DNA from: Dethiobacteria bacterium
GTDB taxonomy: Bacteria > Bacillota > Dethiobacteria > DTU022 > UBA8154
Direction of reading: 5' to 3'
Assembly: GCA_050948825.1 (NCBI GenBank)
Contig: JBMNEO010000005.1
Coordinates: forward strand, 100,432-164,431
DNA length: 64,000 nucleotides
Positions 2,711 through 17,681 of the stretch are shown piece by piece; within the stretch, counting starts at the first letter, position 1, and every line of letters begins with the position of its first letter. The notes beneath the pieces were generated by a model. That model made no database searches, was not told the origin of the DNA, and saw only the letters and a list, made by a program, of their open reading frames with translations. The translations under genes and the position numbers were made by a program.

Positions 2711-2907
2711 TCTTACTATCTCCCCTTTCATTTTTTTTAAAATCTTTTCAGTTCCAAATATGGAAGAATACTCCCCTAGCATTTTATTATATCATATAAT
2801 TTGGATTTAGGGTTGTAAGCCGCCAAAGCAATTTTTACCAACAATTCTCCTCACTTTAAGACACCAATAAATACGGAGCTTGTCTGTGGCGGATATGCAA
2901 GCTTCTG

Positions 2908-3288
2908 CTATTCATCTTCACCAAGCAGGTCTTCTCTTAAAACAACTGCTCCCCTCAGGTAGACATGTTTTATTTCTTGCGCTGTTTTTTTTGTATTTAC
3001 CAGCATCAGTACACGGATACAGCGCAGAAGTGAGCCCGGAACGCTGATTTCATTGGTGCAAAATAAGGGCACGTATTTCCAACCCAGTTCCCGTGCGGCT
3101 TTTGCGGGAAAAGCAGCATCCAGGTCTGCCGTCATGGAAAAAAATACAGCAGCAATTTGATCCTTATCAAGAGAATTTCTGCGCATGATTTCCTGCAGTA
3201 GTTCTCTCGTAGCTTCCAATATTTCTTCGCTTTTATTGGCGGGAACATCAATAGCGCCCCTGATGCCCCTGACATTCTGATCAGGCAA
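2908..3288 (-). CDS. aroH: Chorismate mutase, AroH type (monofunctional)
   Basis: 126 aa, MPDQNVRGIRGAIDV… is typical of the AroH class; it is the last gene of the aro operon. Confidence 0.75.
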   Translation of the reverse strand: MPDQNVRGIRGAIDVPANKSEEILEATRELLQEIMRRNSLDKDQIAAVFFSMTADLDAAFPAKAARELGWKYVPLFCTNEISVPGSLLRCIRVLMLVNTKKTAQEIKHVYLRGAVVLREDLLGEDE

Positions 3289-3422
3289 TTTAATTCCTCT
3301 CCTTTAAAATTTACCTTTGCCCTGGAAACCTTTTCTAAGAACTGGAGAAAAAATTGAAGAGCAAACATCGGCAAATTTTGCCATAGTTGCCTTTACAGAC
3401 TGTACGATCATTGAAACAGTTC

Positions 3423-3875
3423 CTATCTGCTAATAGATATGTTGCATAAAGCCTGTAAGGCCAGCAAATAGCTTTGCGGGCCGAAGCCGCTTATCTGCCC
3501 CCGCACTACCGGGGCTATAACGGAGCGGTGGCGAAACTCTTCCCGGGAATAAATATTGGAAAGGTGCACTTCCACCGCAGGCAGGTCAATCCCTGCCAGC
3601 CCGTCGCGCAATGCAATGCTGTAATGTGTATAGGCGCCGGGGTTAATAATTATTCCATCATACTTTTCAGGCGCGCGGTGAATATAGTCCAGCAGCGCAC
3701 CTTCGCTGTTGGATTGATAGCATTCCACCTTTACCGAGAGCCTTTCCGCTTCTTTGTGGAGCAGATTATTTATGTCTTCCAGTGTCATGCTGCCGTAAAT
3801 TCCCACTTCCCTTCTGCCCAGCAGGTTAAGGTTGGGACCGTGAAGCACTAAAAAGATCTTTTTTCTAACAACCAT
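3423..3875 (-). CDS. aroQ: 3-dehydroquinate dehydratase, type II
   Basis: 150 aa; [17 protein letters not shown]…HLSN motifs. Confidence 0.85.
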
Positions 3876-3992
3876 AGAAAAACCCCTTTGTAAATGATTG
3901 TTCGTTTCTTATCCGACAAGGATCCCGCCGGAATACATGAATATTCTCACGGGCGGTACTTTAAGCCAAGCAAGGCTCATGCCGGGCAGGCC

Positions 3993-4520
3993 TTACTGCC
4001 CTGCGCGGAGCACAACATTGCCGAATATCTCCCGGGCTATCTCCTCAACGGTTTTTCCGGAAGAATCAACTTCCAGATCCGCCTGCCGGTAGAAAGGCCT
4101 CCTTTCCTGCAGCAGTTCCCGGATTACTTTACAGGGATCAGCCACCCTTAGAAGCGGCCGGTTTTTTTTATATTTTATCCTGCGATAGGCCTCCTCTGCC
4201 GATACATCAAGGTAAACAACAAGGCCGTTTTTTCTCATTGCAGCGATATTTTCTTCCCTTAGAACCGCCCCGCCTCCGGTGGAGACCACGCAGGTTCCCG
4301 GCGGTTTGTTTCCCAGGATTCTTAAGGCTTCCGTTTCCCTGTTGCGGAAAAACTCTTCGCCGTAGCGCTTGAAGATTTCATTCACGCTCATTTTCTGGTC
4401 CCGGATTATCAATCCATCCGTATCAAAAAAATCTAACTTTAATAAATCAGCCAGCAGTATACCCACGCTGGTTTTTCCTGAGCCCATAAACCCTGTCAGA
4501 AAGATATTCTTTTTCAGCAT
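3993..4520 (-). CDS. aroK: Shikimate kinase
   Basis: Walker A NIFLTGFMGSGKTSVG; the start is probably the internal MLKKNIFL (the track ORF is extended to 4577). Confidence 0.85.
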   Translation of the reverse strand: MLKKNIFLTGFMGSGKTSVGILLADLLKLDFFDTDGLIIRDQKMSVNEIFKRYGEEFFRNRETEALRILGNKPPGTCVVSTGGGAVLREENIAAMRKNGLVVYLDVSAEEAYRRIKYKKNRPLLRVADPCKVIRELLQERRPFYRQADLEVDSSGKTVEEIAREIFGNVVLRAGQ

Positions 4521-4619
4521 GGGCTTAGCTGAAGAAAATTCAATCCCCGCAGTTTTATCCGGATTAGAGTAAAGCATTTTTAGCCTCGCAAGCTTTTATA
4601 GTAATTTCTTAAGGTATCT

Positions 4620-5519
4620 CTATTTCTGAAGATATTTCTTTCGGTTGTTTCTCAACACATCCTGCATGACTTCCAAAGGCGCCTCTGCCCCGGTAATAAT
4701 TTCGAAAGCTTTTACTCCCTGTCCAAGGAGCATCCCCAGGCCGTCGATGTACGGAATACCTTCCGCCTTCGCCCACTTTTCAAAAGGTGTTTGCCTTTGC
4801 CCATAGCGCAGGTCTATCGCTGCAGAGCAACCCGGCAGGTTATCTGGGAGTAACAAACCCAGTTCAACAGGATCTTCGCTTAAGGCATTGATAATCCAGG
4901 TGATGCCTGAAATACTGCCCCTGCACAACTGCTTAAGACTAATAATATTGACCTGTTTTGCGTTGAAATAACCTCCCCGGGTTAGCAGTGTAGCCAGCAT
5001 TTCAGCTTTACCGGCGGTTCGATTGGCGATAAGCAGCGCTTTCACTTTAATCCTGCCCAGGGCAAGCGCAACAGCCTTTGCGGCGCCCCCCGCCCCCAGC
5101 AATAGAACTCTTGCTGTTGTAAAAGAATCTCTGAAATTATTCTGCAGCAGGCAGAGGAAACCGTCAACATCGGTATTATAGCCTGTTAGTTTTCCTTCCC
5201 TGTTTACAATGGTATTTACTGCCCTTAAAAATGTCACTTCCGAGGAAAGTTCATGCAGAAAAGGAACCGCAGCTTCCTTATGCGGGGCAGTTATATTGAC
5301 ACCCTGCATGTTCAGAGAGATTATGGCCTTCATTGCCGCCGGGAGATCGTTTTTGCGCACAAGAAAAGGCAGGTAACAGTAGTTTAAACCTCTAGCCCTG
5401 AAGGCGGCATTATGCATTGCAGGGGAGAGCGAATGTTTTACCGGATCCCCGTAAATACCCACTATTTTAGTGTTTCCGTTAATGGCTCCCGGCTCAGCTG
5501 TTTCATCGTAAGGAAACAT
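4620..5519 (-). CDS. aroE: Shikimate dehydrogenase
   Basis: 299 aa; GDPVKHSLSPAMHNAAF, NTD, GAGGAAKAV Rossmann. Confidence 0.85.
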   Translation of the reverse strand: MFPYDETAEPGAINGNTKIVGIYGDPVKHSLSPAMHNAAFRARGLNYCYLPFLVRKNDLPAAMKAIISLNMQGVNITAPHKEAAVPFLHELSSEVTFLRAVNTIVNREGKLTGYNTDVDGFLCLLQNNFRDSFTTARVLLLGAGGAAKAVALALGRIKVKALLIANRTAGKAEMLATLLTRGGYFNAKQVNIISLKQLCRGSISGITWIINALSEDPVELGLLLPDNLPGCSAAIDLRYGQRQTPFEKWAKAEGIPYIDGLGMLLGQGVKAFEIITGAEAPLEVMQDVLRNNRKKYLQK

Positions 5520-5542
5520 TTTCTCACCGTTCCTTCGCGTTG

Positions 5543-6688
5543 TTATAATAGCCCCCCGTCCAGGTATTCTTCGATAACCCTTTCTATCAGGAGTGCGGGA
5601 GGGGCCTTAAAGGCCGTTGTTTGACCGAGTGCCGTAGGAAGGATGAAAACCAGCTCTTCTCCTTCTTTTTTCTTGTCATAAAATAAGGCTTTTGTAACAA
5701 CATCGGGGTTTAACCCTCCCGGTGGGGGATGAACATGCAGCCGCTTGAGCAGGGCAATAATCCTTTGTTCAAAAGGCGGATCCAGGATACCCAGCAGTAC
5801 TGCCAGCCTGGCAGCCATGGCCATTCCGCAGGCTACAGCTTCTCCGTGCAGATAATAATTAAAATTGGTTACCGCTTCCAGAGCATGCCCGAAAGTATGC
5901 CCGAAGTTTAAAATACGGCGCAAATCTTTTTCTCTTTCGTCCTGACTGACTATTTCCCCTTTAATAATAACAGCGCGGATAATATACTTTAACAGCCGGG
6001 AGCTGTTCATCTCCAGCAGGTACTTTTTTGGGGAAGTATCTTTGGCGGCAAAGAGCAATAGCTCAAACTTTTCAAAAAGCGTTTTGTCCCGGATGATCCC
6101 GTATTTTATCAGCTCCGCCAGCCCGGCGTTAAATTCGCGCTCGGGCAAAGTATTAAGTGTGCTTTCATCAGCTACTACCAGCGTGGGCTGGTAAAAAACC
6201 CCGATCAGGTTTTTCCCCAGAGGGTGGTTTACGGCAACCTTGCCCCCCACGCTGCTATCGACCATCGCCAGCAGCGTTGTTGGCAGCTGGACGTAAGGAA
6301 TACCCCTTAGATAAGTGGCGGCCACAAAACCCGCGAGGTCTCCAATTACACCCCCGCCGAGAGCGATTATTATCGCAGACCTGTCCATCCCCGCTTCCAG
6401 GGCAGAAGAATAAAGGGCTGAAGCAGACGCTAAAGATTTTTCCTTTTCTCCACCGTCCAGCACTTCCAGGAAAGGCTTGAAACCCCTCTTCCTTAAACTC
6501 TCCAGGCATCTTTCCCCGTAATGTGCAGCAACGTTTTTGTCGCTTATCACCAGGGCGGTGCAGGCGGGTAAATAGCTGGAGATTATCCTGCCGGCATTAT
6601 CCAGCGCTTTTCCGCCCTGGCCAAGATAAACGGGATAGGTTTTCTGTCTCGTCCTTATTTTTACTTTATACAATTTCTTTTCACCCAA
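5543..6688 (-). CDS. aroB: 3-dehydroquinate synthase
   Basis: 381 aa; GGGVIGDLAGFVAATYLRGIPYVQLPTTLLAMVDSSVGGKVAVN. Confidence 0.85.
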   Translation of the reverse strand: MGEKKLYKVKIRTRQKTYPVYLGQGGKALDNAGRIISSYLPACTALVISDKNVAAHYGERCLESLRKRGFKPFLEVLDGGEKEKSLASASALYSSALEAGMDRSAIIIALGGGVIGDLAGFVAATYLRGIPYVQLPTTLLAMVDSSVGGKVAVNHPLGKNLIGVFYQPTLVVADESTLNTLPEREFNAGLAELIKYGIIRDKTLFEKFELLLFAAKDTSPKKYLLEMNSSRLLKYIIRAVIIKGEIVSQDEREKDLRRILNFGHTFGHALEAVTNFNYYLHGEAVACGMAMAARLAVLLGILDPPFEQRIIALLKRLHVHPPPGGLNPDVVTKALFYDKKKEGEELVFILPTALGQTTAFKAPPALLIERVIEEYLDGGLL

Positions 6689-6711
6689 AACAAGAAATTA
6701 TTGCTGCAGCG

Positions 6712-7896
6712 CTAGATCCTCATTTTATTCTCAAAGTAACGCTGAACAAGCCCCGTATAATTATGATAGGCCTGCTCTAATTCTATCATTGTATCACCGG
6801 AGAATTTTTCCAGGAAGGCCCTGGCTATTTCCCAGGCGGTAACAGCTTCCCCCACTACTGAGGCTGCGGCAATTGCACAAATATCGGAACGCTCCACAGC
6901 GGCATTTCTTTGTTCGCCCGTAGACAGATCTATACTGGGCAAAGCCTTTTTCAGGGTCGGAATGGGTTTCATGGCAGCCCTTAAAATGAGGGGTTCGCCG
7001 TTGGTTATCCCCCCCTCAAGCCCCCCGGCATGATTGGCCGACCTCGAGATCTTCTTCTGCTCATCCCATAAAATAGTATCGTGTATCAACGAACCGCTAC
7101 TTTCGGCAGCGCGAAAACCAAGCCCTATCTCAACGCCTTTGATACCGGGGATACTCATTAATGCTCCGGCCAGACGCCCATCCAGGCGCCTGTCCCAGTG
7201 AACGTGACTGCCCAGGCCTGGAGGGATGCCGTCCACCACAATCTCAAAAACTCCTCCTAAAGTGTCCCCCGATTCCCTTGCGCGGTCAATCTTTTTCAGC
7301 ATTAGTTTTTCTGCTTCCGCATCAGTACAGTTGAGAAGGGAGTCCGCCGTTTTTTCTTTGATATCCTTTGCTTTTAACTCACGGTCAATTGTGGAAATTG
7401 TAATATCACCCACGGCGACGATATATCCGGCGCTTTCAATGTGAAAATGCTTCAGCAATAGGGAAGCAACACTGCCGACAGCCACGCGCATAGCCGTTTC
7501 CCTGGCACTGGCACGCTCAAGAACATCGCGCAGATCACTGCGCAAGTATTTAATCCCGCCGGCCAGATCAGCGTGTCCCGGGCGCGGGCTGCTGATTCTT
7601 TTTTCGGATGTCTCGTCCTGCGGTTTTACTGACATTACTTTCTGCCAGTTTGCCCAATCTTTATTCTCAATTTCCAGGGCCAGGGGCGCGCCCGTTGTTT
7701 TCCCAAAACGCACACCGGATAAAACTTTAAGGCGGTCTTTTTCTATGGCCATGCGCCCTCCCCTGCCATACCCCCCCTGGCGCCTGGAGAGCTGCAGGTT
7801 GATATAATCTTCTTTAATTTCCAGACCCGCCGGCAGCCCCTCAATAATACCCACCAGCGCCGGACCGTGCGATTCACCTGCGGATAAATATCGCAT
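6712..7896 (-). CDS. aroC: Chorismate synthase
   Basis: 394 aa; MRYLSAGESHGPALVGIIEGLPAG…. Confidence 0.9.
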   Translation of the reverse strand: MRYLSAGESHGPALVGIIEGLPAGLEIKEDYINLQLSRRQGGYGRGGRMAIEKDRLKVLSGVRFGKTTGAPLALEIENKDWANWQKVMSVKPQDETSEKRISSPRPGHADLAGGIKYLRSDLRDVLERASARETAMRVAVGSVASLLLKHFHIESAGYIVAVGDITISTIDRELKAKDIKEKTADSLLNCTDAEAEKLMLKKIDRARESGDTLGGVFEIVVDGIPPGLGSHVHWDRRLDGRLAGALMSIPGIKGVEIGLGFRAAESSGSLIHDTILWDEQKKISRSANHAGGLEGGITNGEPLILRAAMKPIPTLKKALPSIDLSTGEQRNAAVERSDICAIAAASVVGEAVTAWEIARAFLEKFSGDTMIELEQAYHNYTGLVQRYFENKMRI

Positions 7897-8050
7897 CTTT
7901 ATGATGGCAGTGTAACAATGGGGTTAGGTTTGAAGCAATCCCTTATTCACTTACTTAACATTCTTACCTTGCCCGCTTCAAGATCATTAAGTGAATATTA
8001 CAAGCCGGACCCCGGCCTCTGCCTTTCCTCCTTTTTTATAACACATTATA

Positions 8051-8950
8051 TCAATAAAAGGAGCGTCTCCACAATCTCCCTTCTGAAAGCTTCTTTACAA
8101 CATCTTTTTCATTTTCTTTTTGAATATGTTTGCATAGTATATTAAACTCCTCTAAAAAAAGATTAAGAGCATCACCTAAATTATGTTTATTTGTGGAAAA
8201 GATATCGGACCACATAGACGGTTCGCCCATGGCAATACGTGTCGTATCTTTAAAGCCGTTTCCGGCAAAGGCAAGGAGCTGCTCCTGCCGATAGCCGCTA
8301 TTTTTTAATGTATTGACAAGGGTCACCGCAACCAGATGCGGAAGATGGCTGATCAGCGCCGCCAGTTTGTCATGTTCCTCCGGATCTAAGACGAAAGGGA
8401 GCGCTCCGATTATGCGGATAGCCTTCTGCAGCTTATCCAACGCCTCCTGGGTTGTCCTCCGCGTGGGAGTTAACAGATAAGCAGTATTTTTTAGCAGGGC
8501 AGCATCTGCCGACGCAATACCGGATTTTTCCGAACCGGACATGGGATGGCCGCCGATAGCTGTTACTTCTGGAGGCAGGATCTCTTCCATAGCCATGACA
8601 ATCTTTTTTTTGGTGCTCCCTACGTCAGTAACCAGGGCTCCTTTTTGAAGCAGCGGAGCTATTTCCTTCAGGATTTTCAATGACTGCCGGACGGGCGCAG
8701 AGAGAATAACCAGCTCTGCATCCCGCAAAGCCTGCTGCAGACCGGAAGCGTTCAAGCCGGCTGCGTTATCTACAGCACCCCTTTTCACAGCCTTTTCCAT
8801 AGCCAGTGCATCAACGTCGTATCCCCAGCGTTCCCCTACCATATGGTATTTCCCCAGAGCCAGCCCCAAAGACCCTCCGATGAGACCCAGCCCCAGGATA
8901 CAGCATTTTTCAAACAACGGCTTACAAGGTCCGGCCAACGCTCTGTGCAA
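8051..8950 (-). CDS. tyrA: Prephenate dehydrogenase
   Basis: NAD-binding ILGLGLIGGSLGLAL; TTG start, and the 5' end overlaps the aroF stop by about 29 nt (exact start uncertain). Confidence 0.75.
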   Translation of the reverse strand: MHRALAGPCKPLFEKCCILGLGLIGGSLGLALGKYHMVGERWGYDVDALAMEKAVKRGAVDNAAGLNASGLQQALRDAELVILSAPVRQSLKILKEIAPLLQKGALVTDVGSTKKKIVMAMEEILPPEVTAIGGHPMSGSEKSGIASADAALLKNTAYLLTPTRRTTQEALDKLQKAIRIIGALPFVLDPEEHDKLAALISHLPHLVAVTLVNTLKNSGYRQEQLLAFAGNGFKDTTRIAMGEPSMWSDIFSTNKHNLGDALNLFLEEFNILCKHIQKENEKDVVKKLSEGRLWRRSFY

Positions 8951-9932
8951 CTCCTCTCAGCGGTTCCAGCATCTGCAAAAATTTTTGTGGAATCAGTGAC
9001 TGGGAACCATCGCAAAGGGCCTCTTCGGGAAAGGGGTGCACCTCTACCAGTAGCCCATCAGCTCCGGCAGCAATCGCAGCCAGGCTCATGGATGGAACCC
9101 ACTTCCATTTCCCCGTTCCATGACTGGGATCAACAAATACAGGCAAGTGGCTCAGTTCTTTTGCTATGGGCACGGCGCTGATATCAAGGGTGTTGCGGGT
9201 ATATGTTTCAAATGTACGTATCCCTCTTTCACAGAGAATAACGCGTTCATTCCCGCTTGAGAGAAGATACTCAGCTGCCATTAACCATTCTTCAATTGTG
9301 GCCGACATTCCTCTTTTAAGCAGGACAGGTTTTTTCAGCTGTCCCAATTCTTTCAGCAGCTTAAAATTTTGCATGTTGCGTGCACCCACCTGGATGATGT
9401 CAGCGCACTCGGCAACGATATCTATCGCGTGCTGATCCAGCACTTCCGTGATCAAGGGAAGCCCTGTTGACTTCCTGGCTTCGACCATTATTTTTAAACC
9501 CTCTTCTTCAAGGCCCTGAAAACTGTAAGGGGATGAGCGGGGCTTATATGCCCCTCCTCTTAAAATATCCGCTCCTGCATTTTTAACTGCTTCAGCCGCT
9601 TGAAGATAAGATTCCCCCTCCACTGCGCACGGGCCGGCTATGAGGACAATTTTTTCACCGCCAATTTCTACATCTCCAACCCTGAAAACGGTCTTTTCCC
9701 TTTTAAACTCCCGGCTGACAAGCATATATGGAGGTGAGACAAGTGCCACTTTTTCTACAGCGGGGAGCCTCTCCAATAACTCTTTAAAGTCTTCCCTGGG
9801 TAAACCTATGGCCCCTAAGATAGTGCGTTTTTCTCCGGTGGAACGGTGAACGCTGTATCCAAGTTCTACTATTTTTTCTTCTACCTCCAGGATGTCTTCT
9901 TCGACGGCGCCTAAATTCATAACAACAATCAT
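8922..9932 (-). CDS. aroF: 3-deoxy-7-phosphoheptulonate (DAHP) synthase, class I-beta with an N-terminal regulatory (FL/ACT-like) domain
   Basis: 336 aa; …IAGPCAVEGE…GADILRGGAYKPRSSPYSFQGL…; first gene of the minus-strand aro operon. Confidence 0.85.
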   Translation of the reverse strand: MIVVMNLGAVEEDILEVEEKIVELGYSVHRSTGEKRTILGAIGLPREDFKELLERLPAVEKVALVSPPYMLVSREFKREKTVFRVGDVEIGGEKIVLIAGPCAVEGESYLQAAEAVKNAGADILRGGAYKPRSSPYSFQGLEEEGLKIMVEARKSTGLPLITEVLDQHAIDIVAECADIIQVGARNMQNFKLLKELGQLKKPVLLKRGMSATIEEWLMAAEYLLSSGNERVILCERGIRTFETYTRNTLDISAVPIAKELSHLPVFVDPSHGTGKWKWVPSMSLAAIAAGADGLLVEVHPFPEEALCDGSQSLIPQKFLQMLEPLRGVAQSVGRTL

Positions 9933-10030
9933 TGAGCATCTTCCCCTTTTCCGTTTATTCTTTTATCATTGCAACATAAGTAGCTTAACAAAAACCTTCA
10001 AAGCAAATAGCAAAACCATTTTTTCATTGC

Positions 10031-10345
10031 AAAATAAAAACTTCCGCCCCATAGGGACGGAAGTATAACTTCACGCGGTACCACCCTGGTTAGGCTAGAA
10101 TAGAAGCCTCCCTCTTAAAGGGTACGGACCGTAACAATCCCGGCCTTATACCCCCTCCCTTTTAACGGCGGGAGTTTCCGTCAAAGCCTACTCACCGGAA
10201 TGAATAGCCACTGGCTGGTTTTCGGTTTGCTTTTCAGGGGTGTATTTGGGCAACTTACGACACCGGGTCACACCTTCCCCCGGCTCTCTGCAGTCGATCG
10301 GAATGCCTACTTATCCCCGTCATCAGTTTTTTCGTTTTACTTATG
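10031..10345 (-). promoter_or_regulatory. T-box riboswitch leader (Tyr specifier UAC) preceding aroF-tyrA-aroCBEKQH
   Basis: Minus-strand reading shows, in order: a putative Stem I with an S-turn (AGUA) and AGAGAG; a specifier loop CAAAUACA (UAC at + coords 10242-10244); the T-box sequence AACCAGGGTGGTACCGCG (revcomp of 10074-10091); and a terminator hairpin cttccgtccctatggggcggaag with a U-tract (10036-10063). Confidence 0.6.
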
Positions 10346-10354
10346 TTGTCCACC

Positions 10355-10384
10355 ATTCTATACATTATCAGTTTTATTGTCAAG
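10355..10384 (-). promoter_or_regulatory. Sigma-A-type promoter of the Tyr T-box/aro operon
   Basis: Minus strand: TTGACA, 17 nt, TAGAAT. Confidence 0.45.
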
Positions 10385-10444
10385 GAGTATTTAGAGAATT
10401 TTTTTCGGGGAAACTTATAAAACATAAAACTACAAAAATTATTG

Positions 10445-10474
10445 TTGACACCGGCTGGTTACTTATGCTAAGAT
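10445..10474 (+). promoter_or_regulatory. Sigma-A-type promoter of the divergent T-box/aroF2-pheA operon
   Basis: TTGACA, 18 nt, TAAGAT with a TGc extended -10. Confidence 0.45.
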
Positions 10475-10481
10475 ATGAAAA

Positions 10482-10793
10482 ATATTAAAATAGTAATGGC
10501 AATGAAAGAGGAAAGTAAACTGGTATTGTATGCTACAGAGAGGCGGGGCCGCGGCTGAAAGTCCTGCCGGCTAAGCACCCGGTTGAAGTTCCCTCCGGAG
10601 CTGCAGGCTGAAACCCATTTTATTAAAGGTTACCGGTTAAGTAGGCTGTGCCGGTTTTTTCAACCGTTAAAAGCGAAACAGGAATCGGATTCTTTAAACG
10701 GAATCCCGCTCCTGACAGAGTGGGCTTATTTTGGCCAACCAGGGTGGTACCGCGGAAACGACTTTCTGTCCCTCAGGGCAGAAAGTTTTTTTT
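10482..10793 (+). promoter_or_regulatory. T-box riboswitch leader (candidate Phe specifier UUC) preceding the second DAHP synthase and pheA
   Basis: AGUA and AGAGAG Stem I elements; loop GAAGUUC (UUC at 10589-10591); T-box AACCAGGGTGGTACCGCGG at 10737-10755; terminator ctttctgtccctcagggcagaaag plus U8 at 10762-10793. Confidence 0.55.
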
Positions 10794-10857
10794 ATAAGTT
10801 TACACTTTCGCCCCTGCGATCGTGTAAACTTTTTATTTTACCTAAAAATTTCAGGGA

Positions 10858-11925
10858 GTGATAATATTGATCTTAATGATGAAACGCGAAGCGGATAAAG
10901 CGGCAGTAAACAGGGTTGAAAAGCAACTGGAGCAAATGGGCTGCCGTTCTGTGACCATCAGAAGCAGCGAAGGGGTCATTATCAGCGTAACAGGTGGAAA
11001 CAGGTCGGAAGGCCTGCGGGACCTTGCTCTGCTCCCGGAGATTGAAAGGGTTATAGATGTTACGGTTCCCTACAAACTAGCCAGCAGAGAAATTAAAAAG
11101 GAAAAAAGCGTGCTGGATCTTCAGGATGGGGTAAGCATAGGCGGCAAAGAGGTAATCATAATGGCCGGACCCTGTGCCGTAGAAAGCGAAAAAATGCTTT
11201 TTACTATTGCAGAGCAGGTTGCCCGCGCAGGTGCACGGGTCCTGCGCGGCGGGGCATTTAAGCCCAGGACATCCCCCTACAGCTTCCAGGGCCTGGAAGA
11301 AAAGGGGCTAAAAATCCTGGCGGAAGCCGGGAAAAGAACCGGGCTTAAGATTGTTACCGAGGTAATCAGCCCTCAGGACGTGGAACTGGTTGCCTGTTAC
11401 GCTGATATTTTGCAGGTAGGTGCCCGTAATATGCAAAATTATTCCCTGTTGCGCAGGCTGGGGAAACAGCAGAAACCGGTATTATTAAAAAGAGGCTTTT
11501 CGGCTACCATCGAAGAATGGCTTATGTCTGCGGAATACATCCTGTCAGAAGGGAATTTTAACGTTATTCTTTGTGAAAGAGGGATACGTACATTTGAAAC
11601 ATACACCCGCAACACTCTGGATATCAGCGCCGTTCCGCTTGTGAAGAATTTGAGCCATCTGCCTGTAATTGTGGATCCCAGCCACAGCAGCGGGGACAGC
11701 AAGCTTGTACCGGCACTTTCCAGGGCGGCAATCGCCTCTGGAGCCGATGGTCTCTTAATTGAAGTTCATTCGCACCCGGAAGACGCTTTCTGCGATGGCA
11801 ATCAATCCTTAAACCCCAGGGAATTTCAATTCTTGATGAATAATCTGGCAGATTTCACCAGGGTGTGTGAACGTACGCTTAAAATAAATAATCAACCCGT
11901 AAAGAGTTTCGTTAAGGCAATCTGA
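10858..11925 (+). CDS. DAHP synthase paralog (class I-beta with an N-terminal regulatory domain)
   Basis: 355 aa; …MAGPCAVESE…GARVLRGGAFKPRTSPYSFQGL…; the likely true start is TTG at 10867, 7 nt after AGGGAG. Confidence 0.85.
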   Translation: MIILILMMKREADKAAVNRVEKQLEQMGCRSVTIRSSEGVIISVTGGNRSEGLRDLALLPEIERVIDVTVPYKLASREIKKEKSVLDLQDGVSIGGKEVIIMAGPCAVESEKMLFTIAEQVARAGARVLRGGAFKPRTSPYSFQGLEEKGLKILAEAGKRTGLKIVTEVISPQDVELVACYADILQVGARNMQNYSLLRRLGKQQKPVLLKRGFSATIEEWLMSAEYILSEGNFNVILCERGIRTFETYTRNTLDISAVPLVKNLSHLPVIVDPSHSSGDSKLVPALSRAAIASGADGLLIEVHSHPEDAFCDGNQSLNPREFQFLMNNLADFTRVCERTLKINNQPVKSFVKAI

Positions 11926-12026
11926 CCGGTTGATTGATCCGGCACCTGATATACTTGCCGGGGATATATACTACCGGCAATGTAAAATAAATATCATAAA
12001 AAGGTTATGCAGGGGATGATGCTAAC

Positions 12027-12860
12027 ATGAGCAAAATACTGGGTTTCCTGGGCCCCCCGGGAACGTTTACAGAAGAAGCATCCATAAAATATGCCAGGGA
12101 TAAGGATTTATTGCTTAAATCCTTCCCTGTTCTTGATCAAGTGTTTAGCGCTGTTATGCGCAAAGAAATAGAATATGGGGTAGTACCTGTAGAAAACTCG
12201 CTGGAGGGATCTGTCAGCCTTACCCACGATCTTCTTTCCAATTCCCAGGTGAAAATACAAGGCGAGCTGCTTATCCGGGTAAGGCAATTCCTCCTGGCAC
12301 GTCCGGGTCAAAAACCTGCCCAGATTCGAGAAATCTGTTCCCATCCGCAAGCCCTGGCCCAGTGCCGCTTATACCTGGATAAAAATTATCCCGGAAAGCC
12401 GCGGATTAATATCTCAAGCACAGCCGGGGCCGCTGCTATGGCGGCGCAAAATGACGGTAAAGCTGCGATAGCTTCTTTACGTGCAGCGGAGCTGTACGGC
12501 CTTGAAATACTCCAGGGCAACATCCAGGATGACCAATCCAATATCACCCGTTTTCTTTTACTTGCCCTGGACGATGCGCACCCTACAGGAAAAGATAAAA
12601 CGTCCTTACTGGTCGGGCTGCCCGACAAACCGGGAACCCTTTATTCAATACTAGGCATTTTTGCTCGTTACAGCATTAACCTGACAAAGATCGAATCCCG
12701 TCCCATCAAGGGCAAGTTAGGAAAATATATATTTTTTCTGGATTTTGTTGGGCACCGGAAGGATAATACAGTAGCCCGGGCTCTGTTGGAAGCGGAAAAA
12801 CAGGCGGTATTTTTAAAAATACTGGGAAGTTACCCGCGTGCGGAAAAAGCCGGTTGCTGA
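12027..12860 (+). CDS. pheA: Prephenate dehydratase (PDT catalytic domain plus C-terminal ACT domain)
   Basis: 277 aa; MSKILGFLGPPGTFTEEAS…; C-terminal ACT-like TSLLVGLPDKPGTLYSILGIFARYSINLTKIESRP. Confidence 0.85.
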   Translation: MSKILGFLGPPGTFTEEASIKYARDKDLLLKSFPVLDQVFSAVMRKEIEYGVVPVENSLEGSVSLTHDLLSNSQVKIQGELLIRVRQFLLARPGQKPAQIREICSHPQALAQCRLYLDKNYPGKPRINISSTAGAAAMAAQNDGKAAIASLRAAELYGLEILQGNIQDDQSNITRFLLLALDDAHPTGKDKTSLLVGLPDKPGTLYSILGIFARYSINLTKIESRPIKGKLGKYIFFLDFVGHRKDNTVARALLEAEKQAVFLKILGSYPRAEKAGC

Positions 12861-12961
12861 GGAAAAAAGTGAGGGACAAAGAAGCACTCCTTTTTAAGAA
12901 ATGCTTCTTCTCCTTTTAGCACATATTTGCAAACAGTTCATTATAAGAGATTGGCCCGGTT

Positions 12962-14467
12962 TTATAAGATGATCACTATTAAACCTCCGCTACCCTCATT
13001 GATTACTTTTTCAAGGGTTTGTTGGAGTTTTTGCTGGGCATTCAAGGGCATATTGCTCAGTTTTCCGGAAATACCGTCTTTGACCAGTTCATAAAGCGAT
13101 TTTCCAAAGATATTGGATTCCCATAGTTTTTCGGGGTTTTCGGCGAACTCCTCCATCAGGTAATTGACCAGCTCTTCGCTTTGTTTTTCAGTGCCTACAA
13201 TTGGTGTAAATTCTGATTTAATATCCACGCGGACCATGTGCAACGAGGGAGCGCTTGCCTGAAGCCGAACTCCAAAGCGGCTTCCCTGCCGGATAATTTC
13301 CGGTTCTTCAAGGGTAATCTCCTCCAGGAAGGGCGGCACAATGCCATAGCCTTTTTCTTTTACTTCTTCAAGTGCATATGCCAGTTTGGAATACTCTTTA
13401 CTGGCATGGGAAAATTCCTTTAATATTTTTAGGAGATCTGCTTCATCTTCAATTTCAACTCCACAAATGTCGGATAAAATTTTATCATATAGACTTTGCG
13501 GTGCGGTAATTTCAATAAAGGCACAACCGCTGCCAAGCTCTATATTGCTGATGATTACATCTTCTATAAGATCGTTATTTTTCAATTCCGCTATGGAATT
13601 TTCGATATCACGCAGGCGCTCCGCACTGAGGATATGTTCACGTATAGCCTTTGTATATTCTTCTGCAACCCAGTGGGACGGCTCCAGCACCTCTACCCAT
13701 GAGGGTAAATTTATGCTGATCTCCTGAACAGGGAATTCGTAGAGTACTTCTTTAAATAGCAAGTTGATATCGCTTTCCTTCAGCTCCAGACAGTTTAAAG
13801 GAACTACCGGCACCTCATATTTCATCGCCAGTTCGTCTTTAAGCTGCAATGTATTCTGTGAAAAAGGGTTTGCCGAATTAAGGATGACCACAAAGGGTTT
13901 CCCAATCTCCTTTAGTTCCCCAATCACTCTTTTTTCTGAATCCACATAGCTTCCACGGGGAATATCCGTAATCGTACCATCTGTAGTAACGACAATCCCG
14001 ATGGTGGAGTGCTCCTGGATTACCTTACGCGTTCCCATCTCCGCGGCTTCTTCAAAAGGAATAGGATCATCAAACCAGGGAGTAGACACCATTCTTTGGT
14101 TTCCCTGGTCATCATAACCCAATGCCCCTTCGACCGAATAACCTACACAATCTACCAGCCTGACGCGCATAGAGATATTTTCTGCCACATTTATTTCTAT
14201 AGCATCATCGGGAATAAACTTTGGCTCTGTAGTCATAATGGTCCTTCCGGCACTGCCCTGCGGCAACTCATCCTTTGTTCTTTCCAGCACATGAGGGTTA
14301 TCAATATTGGGGAGAACGAGTATTTCCATAAATTTTTTAATAAAGGTTGATTTACCCGTCCTTACAGGGCCTACAACTCCTAAATAAATATCCCCTCCCG
14401 TTCGCTCAACAATATCCTGAAAAAGGTCGAACTTCACAATTTCTCCCCTCCTTTTGGTTTCAGGCAT
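12962..14467 (-). CDS. spoIVA: Stage IV sporulation protein A (spore coat morphogenetic ATPase)
   Basis: 501 aa; FQDIVERTGGDIYLGVVGPVRTGKSTFIKKFMEILVLPNI matches the SpoIVA N-terminus almost exactly. Confidence 0.9.
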   Translation of the reverse strand: MPETKRRGEIVKFDLFQDIVERTGGDIYLGVVGPVRTGKSTFIKKFMEILVLPNIDNPHVLERTKDELPQGSAGRTIMTTEPKFIPDDAIEINVAENISMRVRLVDCVGYSVEGALGYDDQGNQRMVSTPWFDDPIPFEEAAEMGTRKVIQEHSTIGIVVTTDGTITDIPRGSYVDSEKRVIGELKEIGKPFVVILNSANPFSQNTLQLKDELAMKYEVPVVPLNCLELKESDINLLFKEVLYEFPVQEISINLPSWVEVLEPSHWVAEEYTKAIREHILSAERLRDIENSIAELKNNDLIEDVIISNIELGSGCAFIEITAPQSLYDKILSDICGVEIEDEADLLKILKEFSHASKEYSKLAYALEEVKEKGYGIVPPFLEEITLEEPEIIRQGSRFGVRLQASAPSLHMVRVDIKSEFTPIVGTEKQSEELVNYLMEEFAENPEKLWESNIFGKSLYELVKDGISGKLSNMPLNAQQKLQQTLEKVINEGSGGLIVIIL

Positions 14468-14700: not shown

Positions 14701-15717
14701 CTAATCGAAGGCCACCTCCTCAATTTCGCGTGTTTTATCCCTGCGCATCAAGCTTTCCACTGCATCCTGAGGCTTAACGCCCAGAAATAAAACTCTGTAT
14801 ACTTCATCAGTAATAGGCATTTCAACCCCGAGTTTTTGCGCCAGCAGATATGCTGCTTTTGTTGTTTTGATGCCTTCTGCAACCATTTTCATTGAAGATA
14901 TTATCTCTTCCATAGATTTTCCCTTACCGAGCATCATTCCTACGTAACGGTTTCTGCTATGGAGGCTTGTACACGTTACAAAGAGATCTCCTATCCCCGT
15001 AAGCCCGCTGAAAGTTCCGCGCTTTGCACCCAGGGCAAGACCAAGGCGGGTTATCTCCACTATTCCCCGCGTTATGAGTGCTGCCTTGGTATTATCGCCA
15101 TAGTTCATTCCTTCACAGACGCCGGCTCCTATAGCAATTACATTTTTTAAAGCGCCGCCCAGTTCAACCCCAATCATATCAGTATTGGTATAAACCCTGA
15201 AAAGAGAAGTCATAAAGATATCCTGGACAGCTTTAGCGACATTTTCTTCCTCGGCAGCCACTACTGTTGCAGTAGGAATAAACCGGCATACTTCTTCAGC
15301 ATGATTCGGACCGGATAAGACCGCAACCTTACAGGATAAATTGCCAGGAAGCCCCTCGGCTATCACCTGTGAAAGGCGCTTTAAAGACCCTTCAGCCAGC
15401 CCCTTGGCAGCGTTGACAATTATTGTACCCTCCCCGATAAAACCTCTTATCTTATTAATCAGATCCTCAACTGCATGCGAAGGGACGGCGATGACCAGCA
15501 GATCTTTCCCCTGAACCGCCTCTTCCAGATTATTGGTTAGCTTTATATTTTCAGGCAAAGAAACACCGGGCAAATAATCACTGTTTTCGCGTGTCCCGGC
15601 CATTTTTTCCAGTAAGTCCTTCCTTCGTATCCAAAGAACAACTTGAAAACCTTTAGAGCCCAGCAATATTGCCAGTGCTGTTCCCCAGCTTCCCGCTCCG
15701 ATTAATCCTATATTCAT
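14701..15717 (-). CDS. gpsA: NAD(P)H-dependent glycerol-3-phosphate dehydrogenase
   Basis: MNIGLIGAGSWGTALAILL…; the track's 544-aa ORF is an artefactual read-through from out-of-frame plsY into gpsA. Confidence 0.85.
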   Translation of the reverse strand: MNIGLIGAGSWGTALAILLGSKGFQVVLWIRRKDLLEKMAGTRENSDYLPGVSLPENIKLTNNLEEAVQGKDLLVIAVPSHAVEDLINKIRGFIGEGTIIVNAAKGLAEGSLKRLSQVIAEGLPGNLSCKVAVLSGPNHAEEVCRFIPTATVVAAEEENVAKAVQDIFMTSLFRVYTNTDMIGVELGGALKNVIAIGAGVCEGMNYGDNTKAALITRGIVEITRLGLALGAKRGTFSGLTGIGDLFVTCTSLHSRNRYVGMMLGKGKSMEEIISSMKMVAEGIKTTKAAYLLAQKLGVEMPITDEVYRVLFLGVKPQDAVESLMRRDKTREIEEVAFD

Positions 15718-15737
15718 ATCTGGAACAACCCGCCTTT

Positions 15738-16335
15738 TTAAGGAATTTTTACTTTGTCCCCCAGTTTGGATTCCCTGCCCTGTAGCAGCCTTTTTATATT
15801 CGGATAATGTCGCCATAAGAGGATAAAGCAAACGGATAACCCAAAAATAAAGTAATTCAGGGGATAGCTTAATAAATACATGGTAATAGGGATTAATATA
15901 GCTGCAACAATAGTACCAAGTGAAACGTAACGGCTGATTAGAATAATGGCGATAAAAAGGCCAGAATACTACCAGTGTTGGAATGGGTGCCAGGCCCAGG
16001 AATACTCCCAGTGTTGTTGCTGCCCCCCTGCCTCCTTTAAAAGCAAAAAACACAGGCCAGTTGTGACCGATTATTACTGCCAGGCCGCAGAGCAGAATAA
16101 CCCATGTTTCGGTTCCCAGATAAGATGATATAAGAATTGTCAGTAAACCTTTAACCGCATCAAGGATTAAGACGATGATCGCAAATTTAAATCCCATTAA
16201 TCTGGCGATATTTGTTGCTCCAGCGTTCCCGCTTCCAATTTTTCTGATATCCACCCCTTTTTGCGTTTTAGCAATTAAGTAACCAAAAGAAACAGAGCCT
16301 AATAAATAAGAAAGAATGATGAGAAGTACGGACAT
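15738..16335 (-). pseudogene. plsY: Glycerol-3-phosphate acyltransferase PlsY, interrupted by a 1-nt frameshift at about 15957-15965 (T5 homopolymer)
   Basis: N-terminal frame: MSVLL…GSGNAGATN…HNWPVFFAFKGGRGAATTLGVFLGLAPIPTLVV. The +1 frame continues LFIAIILISRYVSLG…WRHYPNIKRLLQGRESKLGDKVKIP* (canonical PlsY C-terminus) and ends at the TAA at 15738-15740. Confidence 0.7.
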
Positions 16336-16337
16336 TC

Positions 16338-17681
16338 CTATTTTTCTCCTTTCCTTTTACGGGATTTTACCAGCAATCTTAAAGGCGTACCTTTAAAATT
16401 AAAGGCTTCCCTTAAACGGTTTTCCAGATATCTCAAATAAGAAAAATGTATCAAGGAAGAATTATTCACAAAAAGAACAAAGGTGGGAGGCCTGGTCGCA
16501 GACTGTGTCCAGTAATATATGCGGCCTTTCCTTCCGCCGGAGGTTGGTAACGGATTCACACCCTGTGCTTCCGCCAGGAGGTTGTTTATTATAGAGGTGG
16601 AGATGCGCATACTGTAACTTTCGTACACTTCCCTGAAGAGGTTGAACATTCTTTTTAAACGGCGGGGTTCATACACAGAGGTGAAAATAATTGGAGCAAA
16701 GGATACAAATTTTAATTGTTTTTTAACATCATCTATTATTTCATTAACAAAGCCTTCTCTATGCCGTTCTTTTACCAGATCCCATTTATTTAAAGCAATA
16801 ATCAGGGCTTTGTTGCTCTCCAGGACATAACCGGCAATTTTTTTATCCTGTTCGGTTACCCCTTCGGGTGCTTCCAGCAGCAGTAAAACCAGATCAGCGT
16901 TTTCTATTGCTTTTAAGGAGCGTAAAACACTGTAGTACTCAACATTTTCATATACTTTGCTTTTTTTACGAATGCCGGCAGTGTCTACAAATATGTATTT
17001 GTTCCCTTCCCATTCCACCAGGGTATCGATTGCATCTCTGGTAGTTCCCGGTTTACCCGACACGATAACTCTCTCTTCACCTAACAGGGTATTAATAAGG
17101 GATGATTTGCCGACATTAGGGCGCCCAACCACAGCTACCCGTATCGCATCATCAGTCTCAATACTGCCGGCGCTCTTTGCCCTGCATGCGGGGAAAAAGG
17201 AGATAATTTTATCCAGCAGATCACCGATATTCAATCCATGGGCTGCGGAAACAGGCAGAGGGACGTCTAGGCCAAGCTTATAAAAATCTGCTGTATTCTG
17301 TTTGGCGGACTCGATCTTGTTTACTACCAGCAGCACAGGTTTCCGCTGCCTGCGAAGCATATCCGCGATTTCCTCATCAAGGGGAGTTAAGCCCTGTCTT
17401 CCATCAACAAGAAACACGATCACCGTAGCTTCTTCCAGAGCAAGCTGGGCTTGCTTTTGAACCAGTGTTTCTAATTCTTCGTTATCAGAAAGGGTAAGGC
17501 CCCCCGTGTCGACTACCAAAAATTCTTTATCCAGCCAGCTAGCCCTGCCATACAGGCGATCCCTGGTAACACCGGCCTTTTTTTCTTCGATAGCCCTTCT
17601 TCCGCCGGTGATACGGTTAAAGAGGGTAGATTTTCCAACATTGGGACGGCCTACGATAGCAACAAGCGGAACCACGGCCAA
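16338..17681 (-). CDS. der: Ribosome biogenesis GTPase Der (EngA), tandem GTP-binding domains
   Basis: 447 aa; two G domains (GRPNVGKSTLFN… and GRPNVGKSSLIN…) plus a KH-like C-terminus. Confidence 0.9.
   Translation of the reverse strand: MAVVPLVAIVGRPNVGKSTLFNRITGGRRAIEEKKAGVTRDRLYGRASWLDKEFLVVDTGGLTLSDNEELETLVQKQAQLALEEATVIVFLVDGRQGLTPLDEEIADMLRRQRKPVLLVVNKIESAKQNTADFYKLGLDVPLPVSAAHGLNIGDLLDKIISFFPACRAKSAGSIETDDAIRVAVVGRPNVGKSSLINTLLGEERVIVSGKPGTTRDAIDTLVEWEGNKYIFVDTAGIRKKSKVYENVEYYSVLRSLKAIENADLVLLLLEAPEGVTEQDKKIAGYVLESNKALIIALNKWDLVKERHREGFVNEIIDDVKKQLKFVSFAPIIFTSVYEPRRLKRMFNLFREVYESYSMRISTSIINNLLAEAQGVNPLPTSGGRKGRIYYWTQSATRPPTFVLFVNNSSLIHFSYLRYLENRLREAFNFKGTPLRLLVKSRKRKGEK

What the first reader, a model, noticed from the sequence alone, without database searches (positions are those of the whole stretch)
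10031..10793. Mirror-image pair of T-box riboswitches drives two divergent DAHP-synthase operons with different aromatic specifiers
The same conserved T-box sequence (AACCAGGGTGGTACCGCG) occurs on both strands about 650 bp apart. Each copy is followed in its own orientation by a stem-loop plus U-tract terminator. Each is preceded by a sigma-A-like promoter, and the two -35 boxes lie only about 60 bp apart. The minus-strand leader feeds aroF-tyrA-aroC-aroB-aroE-aroK-aroQ-aroH; the plus-strand leader feeds a second class I-beta DAHP synthase plus pheA. In the minus leader the inferred specifier loop reads C-AAA-UAC-A (Tyr codon plus the conserved 3' A), with an AGUA S-turn on the 5' side. This matches tyrA being in that operon. 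In the plus leader the equivalent position reads G-AAG-UUC (Phe codon), matching pheA, although the 3' purine is not canonical. This implies a regulatory design in which two duplicated DAHP synthases are independently de-attenuated by uncharged tRNA-Tyr and tRNA-Phe. That is a tRNA-sensing analogue of the classical Tyr/Phe/Trp-specific isoenzyme feedback system.
Basis: partly seen in the sequence, partly recalled or inferred. Interest (0 to 1): 0.65.

Follow-up and report, generated by a model that had tools for sequence, protein, structure and literature searches.

The report
Divergent Tyr and Phe T-box leaders
Two back-to-back tRNA-sensing T-box leaders, one reading the tyrosine codon and one the phenylalanine codon, each precede their own copy of the first enzyme of aromatic amino acid synthesis; this is a tidy but ordinary case of a well-known bacterial control system.

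Summary
Rfam's T-box model (RF00230) matches both strands above its gathering score: 10332..10050 (-) at 108.4 bits and 10493..10776 (+) at 98.5 bits. Each match has a promoter-like site upstream. Each has a terminator (-18.0 and -16.2 kcal/mol) that competes with a weaker antiterminator (-9.2 and -7.9) carrying the UGGUACC bulge.

The model alignment places UAC (Tyr, 10244..10242) in the minus leader and UUC (Phe, 10589..10591) in the plus leader.

In 12 related loci plus the window, all 7 leaders before DAHPS-tyrA carry UAC and all 7 before DAHPS-pheA carry UUC.

The two leaders are not mirror duplicates. They are 52% identical to each other but 66-70% identical to same-class leaders in other taxa, and the two DAHP synthases (55% identical) fall in separate clades that track tyrA or pheA. 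Only the head-to-head placement is special, and it recurs in a sister lineage of this Dethiobacteria MAG.

T-box control of aromatic biosynthesis genes is already documented, so I file this as a new member of a known kind. Function is inferred, not tested.

Minor oddities: every Phe-class leader has a pyrimidine where a conserved purine is expected, and the minus leader has CAA in place of the GAA motif.

The parts
10355..10383 (-). Promoter-like site of the Tyr leader: -35 TTGACA (10383..10378), 17-nt spacer, -10 TAGAAT (10360..10355)
   Evidence: 11 of 12 consensus matches. The -35 hexamer is unchanged in the sister lineage and the -10 changes only from TAGAAT to TAAAAT, while the surrounding spacer varies. 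No transcription start has been mapped.
10050..10332 (-). T-box leader, Tyr class (Stem I, Stem II, IIA/B with CCGUUA, Stem III, antiterminator)
   Evidence: RF00230, 108.4 bits, E = 5e-23, model positions 1-219.
10242..10244 (-). Specifier codon UAC (Tyr), in the loop CAA-A-UAC-A, followed by the canonical A
   Evidence: Covariance-model alignment. The same column is UAC in all 7 tyrA-linked leaders. The Stem I base helix that frames it shows compensatory changes.
10074..10091 (-). T-box sequence AACCAGGGUGGUACCGCG, 5' half of the antiterminator with the UGGU(ACC) bulge
   Evidence: The antiterminator folds at -9.2 kcal/mol with a 7-nt bulge.
10030..10064 (-). Intrinsic terminator: an 11-bp hairpin (10064..10040) plus U tract. 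Its 5' arm overlaps the 3' arm of the antiterminator.
   Evidence: hairpin energy -18.0 kcal/mol; the MFE fold of the whole leader forms it.
8922..9932 (-). DAHP synthase, class I-beta, with N-terminal ferredoxin-like regulatory domain (tyrA-linked paralog)
   Evidence: NF006421, 485 bits; PF00793 plus PF18152; matches T. maritima 1RZM/3PG9 over its full length.
8051..8950 (-). tyrA, prephenate dehydrogenase
   Evidence: The scores are below the equivalog cut-offs, so the family assignment is firm but the exact subtype is not.
2908..7896 (-). aroC (6712-7896), aroB (5543-6688), aroE (4620-5519), aroK (3993-4577), aroQ (3423-3875), aroH chorismate mutase (2908-3288). Same strand, downstream of tyrA.
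   Evidence: Co-transcription with the leader is inferred from strand and spacing only. A TGATATAAT extended -10-like motif at 8053..8045 could give separate expression.
10445..10474 (+). Promoter-like site of the Phe leader: -35 TTGACA, 18-nt spacer, TG-extended -10 TAAGAT
   Evidence: 10 of 12 consensus matches; hexamers unchanged in the sister lineage.
10493..10776 (+). T-box leader, Phe class
   Evidence: RF00230, 98.5 bits, E = 2e-20, model positions 1-219.
10589..10591 (+). Specifier codon UUC (Phe), in the loop GAA-G-UUC-C. The next base is C, not the usual purine.
   Evidence: UUC followed by a pyrimidine is found in all 7 pheA-linked leaders. The helix register is supported by an A.C to A-U change (10596 C>T) in the sister lineage.
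10737..10754 (+). T-box sequence with UGGU(ACC) bulge
   Evidence: antiterminator -7.9 kcal/mol.
10760..10797 (+). Intrinsic terminator: a 12-bp hairpin (10760..10787) plus a run of 8 U
   Evidence: -16.2 kcal/mol; formed in the MFE fold of the whole leader.
10867..11925 (+). DAHP synthase, class I-beta, with ferredoxin-like domain (pheA-linked paralog). Likely TTG start at 10867, 8 nt after GGGAG.
   Evidence: The 352-aa product is the form on record in public assemblies.
12027..12860 (+). pheA, prephenate dehydratase with ACT domain
   Evidence: NF008865, 280.7 bits, above its cut-off of 219.

Best explanation
The 934-bp intergenic region holds two divergent promoters, each followed by a classical transcription-attenuating T-box riboswitch.

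By default each leader folds into its intrinsic terminator, and RNA polymerase stops before the first gene. When the matching tRNA is uncharged, two contacts form. Its anticodon pairs with the specifier in Stem I: UAC with tRNA-Tyr(GUA) on the minus strand, UUC with tRNA-Phe(GAA) on the plus strand. Its free NCCA end pairs with UGGU in the T-box bulge. These contacts stabilise the weaker antiterminator and allow read-through.

Tyr limitation would therefore raise one DAHP synthase, TyrA and, if co-transcribed, AroC/B/E/K/Q and chorismate mutase. Phe limitation would raise the second DAHP synthase and PheA.

Both synthases also carry the ferredoxin-like domain that mediates Tyr/Phe feedback inhibition in the Thermotoga enzyme. 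Transcriptional sensing of tRNA charging is thus probably layered on allosteric control.

Shown here: RNA family membership, the anatomy of both leaders, the specifier positions, the terminator/antiterminator alternative, the gene identities, and conservation of each module. Inferred: the tRNA response, the extent of each operon, and allosteric inhibition.
For: - **Family match.** Both leaders exceed the Rfam gathering score over the full model.
- **Switch.** Terminators (-18.0 and -16.2 kcal/mol) overlap and outcompete antiterminators (-9.2 and -7.9) that carry the 7-nt UGGUACC bulge.
- **Specifier.** The specifier column reads UAC in 7 of 7 DAHPS-tyrA leaders and UUC in 7 of 7 DAHPS-pheA leaders from different taxa. 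TBDB reports UAC and UUC as 99% of Tyr and Phe specifiers, and places the specifier 2-4 nt from the 3' end of the bulge (PMC7778990), as here.
- **Covariation.** RNAalifold recovers the Stem I base helix, Stem II and a helix in the IIA/B region. 15 of 31 pairs show compensatory changes.
- **Sister lineage.** With a 95% identical intergenic region, it keeps both leaders, both codons, the T-box sequences and terminators, and both promoters (three hexamers unchanged, the minus -10 TAGAAT to TAAAAT). Substitutions and an 18-nt deletion accumulate between the promoters.
- **Genes.** Identities; structural homologs.
Against: - There is no experimental evidence and no transcription data.
- No tRNA gene lies in the window, so the anticodon and discriminator match cannot be checked in this organism.
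- The plus leader has C instead of the conserved purine 3' of the specifier (PMC7583486 describes that purine).
- The minus leader has CAA instead of the conserved GAA of the specifier-loop motif. The sister lineage has GAA, so this copy could be weakened.
- The promoters are consensus matches only.
- A possible internal promoter at the tyrA stop codon leaves the reach of the Tyr leader uncertain.
Confidence: 0.8

Rival explanations
1. The plus leader is a T-box, but its specifier is read in another frame (GUU = Val or UCC = Ser). This is suggested because the base after UUC is not a purine and can pair with G19 to extend the helix.
For: The loop reads GAAGUUCC, and the C after UUC faces a G on the 5' side. 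TBDB also considers -1 and +1 frames (PMC7778990).
Against: GAAGUUC-Y is kept in all 7 pheA-linked leaders. The opposing 5' base varies (G, A, C), so the extra pair is not conserved. The Rfam register is supported by A.C to A-U in the sister lineage and by compensatory pairs 15:108 and 17:106. The downstream genes are a DAHPS and pheA, not Val or Ser genes.
Confidence: 0.05
2. One or both leaders are decaying or constitutively leaky relics, and real control is exerted only by allosteric feedback on the two DAHP synthases through their ferredoxin-like domains.
For: The minus leader carries C in place of the conserved G of the GAA motif. The plus leader lacks the conserved purine. Both enzymes have the PF18152 regulatory domain. 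Related taxa have DAHPS pairs with no T-box at all.
Against: Both leaders score above the gathering threshold with intact terminators and antiterminators. Within the leaders the sister lineage shows few changes, and some of those restore pairs or motifs, whereas the spacer between the promoters is heavily changed. The pyrimidine is a class-wide feature, not a private mutation (7 of 7).
Confidence: 0.1
3. The two leaders cross-respond: each is opened by both tRNA-Tyr and tRNA-Phe. They differ at a single specifier position and share UGGU, so the pair would act as a general aromatic-starvation switch rather than two independent channels.
For: The specifiers differ only at the middle base, and both bulges read UGGU. 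The Tyr leader precedes the common-pathway genes that Phe synthesis also needs.
Against: A central mismatch in a 3-bp codon-anticodon helix is strongly destabilising. The strict 14 of 14 correlation of codon with branch gene argues for selection on specificity.
Confidence: 0.05

Closest known systems
Bacillus subtilis tyrS T-box leader (Grundy & Henkin 1993; reviewed in PMC7583486)
   Same: Same RNA family and the same UAC specifier. It shares the long Stem I with a side-bulge specifier loop, Stem II, IIA/B, Stem III, the UGGN bulge, and the terminator/antiterminator switch.
   Different: It regulates an aminoacyl-tRNA synthetase, not biosynthesis genes. The window's Tyr leader has CAA instead of GAA in the specifier loop.
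Tyr T-box upstream of the tyrosine biosynthesis operon in the Bacillus cereus group (Wels et al. 2008, PMC2494555, citing Panina et al. 2003). From my own memory, not re-read here: the T-box catalogue of Vitreschak et al. 2008, which lists aromatic biosynthesis genes under Tyr/Phe/Trp T-boxes.
   Same: A T-box with an aromatic specifier controls shikimate-pathway and tyrosine-branch genes.
   Different: Here two differently specified leaders each gate their own DAHPS paralog and sit head to head. The host is a Dethiobacteria MAG, not a Bacillus.
T-box-DAHPS-pheA and T-box-DAHPS-tyrA modules in other Bacillota MAGs (L001, L012, L016, L028, L087, L106; L014, L018, L019, L090, L092, L105)
   Same: Same leader classes (66-70% identical), same specifiers, same gene pairs, and same DAHPS clades.
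   Different: None of these loci shows the divergent partner within 3 kb. L012, L016, L106 and L028 have a second antiterminator/terminator domain that the window lacks.
Escherichia coli AroF/AroG/AroH isoenzyme system (Tyr-, Phe- and Trp-specific feedback inhibition and TyrR/TrpR repression; established knowledge)
   Same: The logic is the same: parallel DAHP synthases, each answering to a different aromatic end product.
   Different: The E. coli enzymes are class I-alpha, whereas these are class I-beta. The E. coli signal is the free amino acid, sensed by protein; here it is tRNA charging, sensed by RNA. No Trp-specific third member is seen in this window.
Thermotoga maritima DAHP synthase (PDB 1RZM, 3PG9)
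   Same: Both window enzymes align over their full length, including the N-terminal ferredoxin-like domain (PF18152).
   Different: The Thermotoga enzyme is a single copy inhibited by Tyr and Phe. No T-box control of it is known to me.

Membership tests
T-box leader (Rfam RF00230) | Covariance-model score at or above the curated gathering score over the full model | tested here: met
   108.4 bits (minus) and 98.5 bits (plus) against 93; model positions 1-219 in both.
T-box leader (Rfam RF00230) | Stem I with GA/K-turn base, specifier loop with AGUA...GAA motif, AG bulge (AGAGA) and distal loop | tested here: met
   The plus leader has all motifs (UGA, AGUA, AGAGA, GGCUGAAAG, GAA). The minus leader has all of them except that GAA reads CAA; the sister lineage has GAA. 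The base helix shows compensatory changes.
T-box leader (Rfam RF00230) | Specifier triplet 2-4 nt from the 3' end of the specifier bulge, matching the amino acid of the regulated genes | tested here: met
   UAC precedes DAHPS-tyrA and UUC precedes DAHPS-pheA. The match holds in 14 of 14 related leaders.
T-box leader (Rfam RF00230) | [quoted passage not shown] | tested here: not met
   The minus leader has A (met). The plus leader has C. All 7 Phe-class leaders have C or U, and 2 of 7 Tyr-class leaders have C. This is a conserved feature rather than a strictly defining one, so I do not take it to exclude membership.
T-box leader (Rfam RF00230) | T-box sequence forming an antiterminator with a 7-nt bulge containing UGGN | tested here: met
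   Both leaders fold as AGGG[UGGUACC]GCG...CCCU, at -9.2 and -7.9 kcal/mol.
T-box leader (Rfam RF00230) | Mutually exclusive, more stable intrinsic terminator followed by a U tract | tested here: met
   Hairpins of -18.0 and -16.2 kcal/mol share the CGUCCC arm with the antiterminator, and T runs follow.
T-box leader (Rfam RF00230) | Stem II, IIA/B element with F-box CCGUUA, and Stem III | tested here: met
   All are aligned by the model. CCGUUA lies at 10168..10163 (-) and 10664..10669 (+). Covarying pairs occur in Stem II and in a helix of the IIA/B region.
T-box leader (Rfam RF00230) | Host tRNA with matching anticodon and a discriminator base complementary to N of UGGN | not testable with these tools
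N = U would fit A73, which bacterial tRNA-Tyr and tRNA-Phe normally carry (own knowledge).
T-box leader (Rfam RF00230) | Read-through induced by uncharged cognate tRNA | not testable with these tools
   This needs in vitro transcription or in vivo reporters.
Class I-beta DAHP synthase with ferredoxin-like regulatory domain (T. maritima type) | DAHP_synth_1 catalytic barrel plus N-terminal PF18152 domain | tested here: met
   Both paralogs have PF00793 (E = 1e-80 and 2e-79) and PF18152 (E = 6e-17 and 1e-9). Both match 1RZM/3PG9 over the full length.
Class I-beta DAHP synthase with ferredoxin-like regulatory domain (T. maritima type) | Allosteric inhibition by Tyr and/or Phe | not testable with these tools
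   Enzyme assays are required.
E. coli-type end-product-specific DAHPS isoenzyme system | Class I-alpha paralogs, each inhibited and repressed by one aromatic amino acid | tested here: not met
   The enzymes are class I-beta and the sensor is an RNA. This is an analogy of logic only, not membership.

The most novel reading that the evidence does not exclude
The Phe-specific aromatic-biosynthesis T-boxes form a distinct structural subclass. They systematically replace the 'conserved' purine 3' of the specifier with a pyrimidine (7 of 7). In four relatives they carry a second antiterminator/terminator domain behind a single Stem I. This would imply a modified way of capping the codon-anticodon helix, or a two-step checkpoint. 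In this Dethiobacteria lineage, such a leader is paired head to head with a Tyr leader, giving a two-channel, tRNA-charge-gated entry into the shikimate pathway on top of allosteric control.
Probability: 0.15. Interest if true: 0.45.

Novelty: new member of a known kind. Interest (0 to 1): 0.25.

Why it matters
The locus is a clean, compact natural example of one pathway entry step being duplicated and wired to two different tRNA-charging signals. That makes it useful as a teaching case and as a source of orthogonal Tyr and Phe T-box parts. It shows that each DAHPS paralog, its branch gene and its leader class travel together as an old module. It does not change the understanding of T-box riboswitches or of aromatic amino acid regulation. 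The only feature that might interest T-box structural biologists is the consistent pyrimidine after the Phe specifier.

Tried and rejected
- **Inverted duplication.** I considered that the pair arose by inverted duplication and rejected it. The leaders are 52% identical to each other but 66-70% identical to same-class leaders elsewhere, and the DAHPS paralogs fall in separate clades.
- **Shared operator.** I looked for a palindrome or operator between the promoters. Only weak AT-rich matches and the two -35 boxes themselves turned up.
- **Other structured RNAs.** A search of 2700-13100 at E <= 1 found nothing beyond the two T-boxes and one chance-level hit.
- **Head-to-head arrangement elsewhere.** I examined 160 DAHPS loci from genome and metagenome collections and found none. 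It occurs only in contigs that differ by one substitution and one 1-nt indel in the intergenic region or are 95% identical there. Tandem same-strand DAHPS pairs in Thermincola, Desulfovirgula and others have no T-box.
- **Prior descriptions.** Searches for Tyr or Phe T-boxes in front of DAHPS returned only Wels 2008 as relevant. Vitreschak 2008 and the MMBR review are not held.
- **Geobacter genome paper.** Its T-box precedes leuA, not DAHPS.
- **aroA.** No EPSP synthase gene was found among the large ORFs of the window.

Full report
**Observation.** The 18-mer AACCAGGGTGGTACCGCG occurs exactly twice in the window, at 10074-10091 on the minus strand and 10737-10754 on the plus strand. None is expected by chance. 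A scan of the whole window against Rfam gave three matches above gathering score. Two are full-length T-box leaders (RF00230): 10332..10050 (-) at 108.4 bits and 10493..10776 (+) at 98.5 bits, against a threshold of 93. The third is an unrelated OLE RNA near 62 kb.

Each leader ends in a terminator-like hairpin with a T run, at 10064..10040 (-) and 10760..10787 (+). Each is preceded by a near-consensus sigma-70-type site: TTGACA-17-TAGAAT at 10383..10355 (-) and TTGACA-18-TG-TAAGAT at 10445..10474 (+). The two -35 boxes start 62 bp apart.

**Genes.** NCBIfam identifies the following on the minus strand: a class I-beta DAHP synthase (8922-9932), prephenate dehydrogenase (8051-8950), chorismate synthase, 3-dehydroquinate synthase, shikimate dehydrogenase, shikimate kinase, type II dehydroquinase and AroH chorismate mutase, ending at 2908. 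On the plus strand it identifies a second DAHP synthase (10867-11925) and prephenate dehydratase (12027-12860).

The next gene on the minus side is an SLH/DUF6612 protein. The plus pair is followed by a convergent spoIVA. Both synthases carry the N-terminal ferredoxin-like domain PF18152. Both align over their full length with the Thermotoga maritima enzyme (1RZM, 3PG9). They are 55% identical to each other. No EPSP synthase gene was found among the large ORFs of the window.

**Anatomy of the switches.** The Rfam alignment recovers the following elements in both leaders:
- the GA/K-turn base and the AGUA motif;
- the AGAGA bulge and the distal loop;
- Stem II, the CCGUUA F-box and Stem III;
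- the T-box sequence.

When folded up to the 5' arm of the terminator, each 3' domain forms the canonical antiterminator AGGG[UGGUACC]GCG...CCCU, at -9.2 (minus) and -7.9 (plus) kcal/mol. The terminator hairpins reuse the CGUCCC arm and are worth -18.0 and -16.2 kcal/mol. The MFE fold of each whole leader contains the terminator. The default state is therefore termination, and the antiterminator needs outside stabilisation. That is the T-box mechanism as reviewed in PMC7583486 and PMC7778990.

**Specifier.** The covariance-model alignment places UAC (10244..10242) followed by A in the minus leader, and UUC (10589..10591) followed by C in the plus leader. To test this beyond one alignment, I collected DAHPS loci from one genome per species and from metagenomes. 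I then located T-box motifs and neighbouring genes.

Twelve loci have a T-box directly before a DAHPS that is followed by a branch gene:
- **tyrA-linked:** L014, L018, L019, L090, L092 and L105. All six read UAC.
- **pheA-linked:** L001, L012, L016, L028, L087 and L106. All six read UUC.

With the window's two leaders, the count is 14 of 14. In a joint alignment of 13 of these leaders (L028 was read separately) the codon occupies columns 101-103, and only its middle base differs between the two classes. RNAalifold independently predicts the Stem I base helix (columns 15-18 with 105-108), with compensatory GC/AU/CG changes. This puts the codon 2-4 nt from the 3' end of the bulge, which is the position TBDB uses. 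TBDB also reports UAC and UUC as 99% of Tyr and Phe specifiers (PMC7778990).

A sister lineage converts the A.C mismatch at the bottom of the plus helix into A-U (10596 C>T). That supports the register and argues against the alternative GUU or UCC frames.

**Origin of the pair.** The two window leaders are 52% identical. Each is 66-70% identical to leaders of its own class in other taxa, and the Phe leaders form one clade. The DAHPS tree likewise separates tyrA-linked from pheA-linked enzymes. The locus is therefore not an inverted duplication. It is two old modules, T-box(Tyr)-DAHPS-tyrA and T-box(Phe)-DAHPS-pheA, placed head to head.

No other locus among the 160 examined shows that placement. 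The exact proteins occur in a MAG annotated as Dethiobacteria bacterium (MGI6328276-78). A sister lineage (GCA_050948805.1, GCA_012520035.1 and biogas metagenomes) has a 95% identical intergenic region and keeps the divergent architecture. It retains both codons, both T-box sequences and both terminators. Three promoter hexamers are unchanged; the minus -10 changes from TAGAAT to TAAAAT. An 18-nt deletion and many substitutions fall between the promoters. That pattern is what purifying selection on the leaders and promoters would give.

**Mechanism and its limits.** The best-supported reading is two independent transcription-attenuation switches, answering to the charging of tRNA-Tyr and tRNA-Phe. 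Each gates one DAHPS paralog plus the matching branch enzyme. Probable allosteric control through the ferredoxin-like domains forms a second layer.

The design is asymmetric. The common-pathway genes and chorismate mutase lie only behind the Tyr leader. Phe starvation alone would then raise only pathway entry and PheA, unless the common genes have their own promoter. A TGATATAAT extended -10-like motif overlaps the tyrA stop codon at 8053..8045, but this is consensus-level evidence only.

Several things cannot be shown here: tRNA binding, the host's tRNA anticodons and discriminator bases (no tRNA gene in the window), the transcription starts, and enzyme inhibition.

**Deviations.**
- Every Phe-class leader has a pyrimidine (C or U) where a conserved purine is expected to stack under the codon-anticodon helix (PMC7583486). 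Two Tyr-class leaders also have C.
- The window's minus leader has CAA where the other 12 leaders in the alignment and the sister lineage have GAA.
- L012, L016, L106 and L028 carry a second Stem III/antiterminator/terminator unit after a complete T-box. This is a 'partially tandem' form, a type the review lists as having an unknown mode of action (PMC7583486).

None of these features removes the window's leaders from the family.

[quoted passage not shown] 2003). From memory, the 2008 catalogue of Vitreschak et al. lists aromatic biosynthesis genes under Tyr, Phe and Trp T-boxes, but I could not re-read it.

I found no paper in the held library that describes paired Tyr- and Phe-gated DAHPS paralogs. 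That is weak evidence of absence. Both modules are common in public MAGs, and T-box databases would annotate them automatically.

The analogy with the E. coli AroF/G/H isoenzymes is apt as logic only, not as membership: the enzyme class differs (I-beta versus I-alpha) and so does the sensor.

**Verdict.** I rate it a new member of a known kind, with modest interest (0.25).

Noticed in passing
window 61864-62447 (-): Full-length OLE (ornate large extremophilic) RNA, RF01071, 475.6 bits. It lies just downstream of dxs (59293-61185, -) on the same strand.
   Followed up: no
L016 2546-3000; L012 2498-2925; L106 2551-2840 and the sequence downstream of it; L028 1297-1690: Phe-class leaders in four other MAGs consist of a complete T-box (bulge UGGUAAC or UGGUAUA, with its own terminator-like hairpin and U run). 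A second Stem III plus T-box sequence plus terminator follows, with no second Stem I. This is a partially tandem T-box, seen directly in L016, L012 and L028; for L106 it rests on a second T-box motif at 2917 and 94% leader identity to L016.
   Followed up: partly
window 10592 (+), and the same column in L001, L012, L016, L028, L087, L106: The base 3' of the UUC specifier is C or U in all 7 Phe-class DAHPS-pheA leaders, where T-boxes normally have a conserved purine. Two of the 7 Tyr-class leaders (L014, L090) also have C.
   Followed up: partly
window 10248 (-): The conserved G of the specifier-loop GAA motif is C in this genome and in the same-species contig L081. It is G in the sister lineage (L167-L170) and in the other 12 aligned leaders.
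   Followed up: partly
window 8045-8053 (-): TGATATAAT (an extended -10-like motif) overlaps the tyrA stop codon, ahead of a 154-nt gap before aroC. This is a possible internal promoter for the common-pathway genes. A short GC hairpin (GCCGG-GGU-CCGGC) lies in the same gap.
   Followed up: no
window 2908-9932 (-): The aro operon lacks aroA (EPSP synthase). None of the ORFs of 380 aa or more that I scanned elsewhere in the window is an EPSP synthase either.
   Followed up: partly
window 14701-16335 (-): A single 544-aa ORF combines a PlsY-type glycerol-3-phosphate acyltransferase domain (residues 8-125) with a full GpsA glycerol-3-phosphate dehydrogenase. It is an apparent PlsY-GpsA fusion, next to der (16338-17681).
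   Followed up: no
window 10415-10432 (+), compared with L167-L170: The sister lineage has an 18-nt deletion and many substitutions between the two -35 boxes, bringing them to about 44 bp apart. The four promoter hexamers keep their consensus match (three unchanged; the minus -10 reads TAAAAT instead of TAGAAT).
   Followed up: yes
L057 428-5659; L157 285-4985; L044 1443-4945: Chloroflexota-like contigs carry aroH-(pheA)-DAHPS-DAHPS-tyrA on one strand, with no T-box motif found by pattern search (these three loci were not scanned with Rfam). Two adjacent DAHPS paralogs flanked by the Phe and Tyr branch genes therefore recur outside Bacillota.
   Followed up: no
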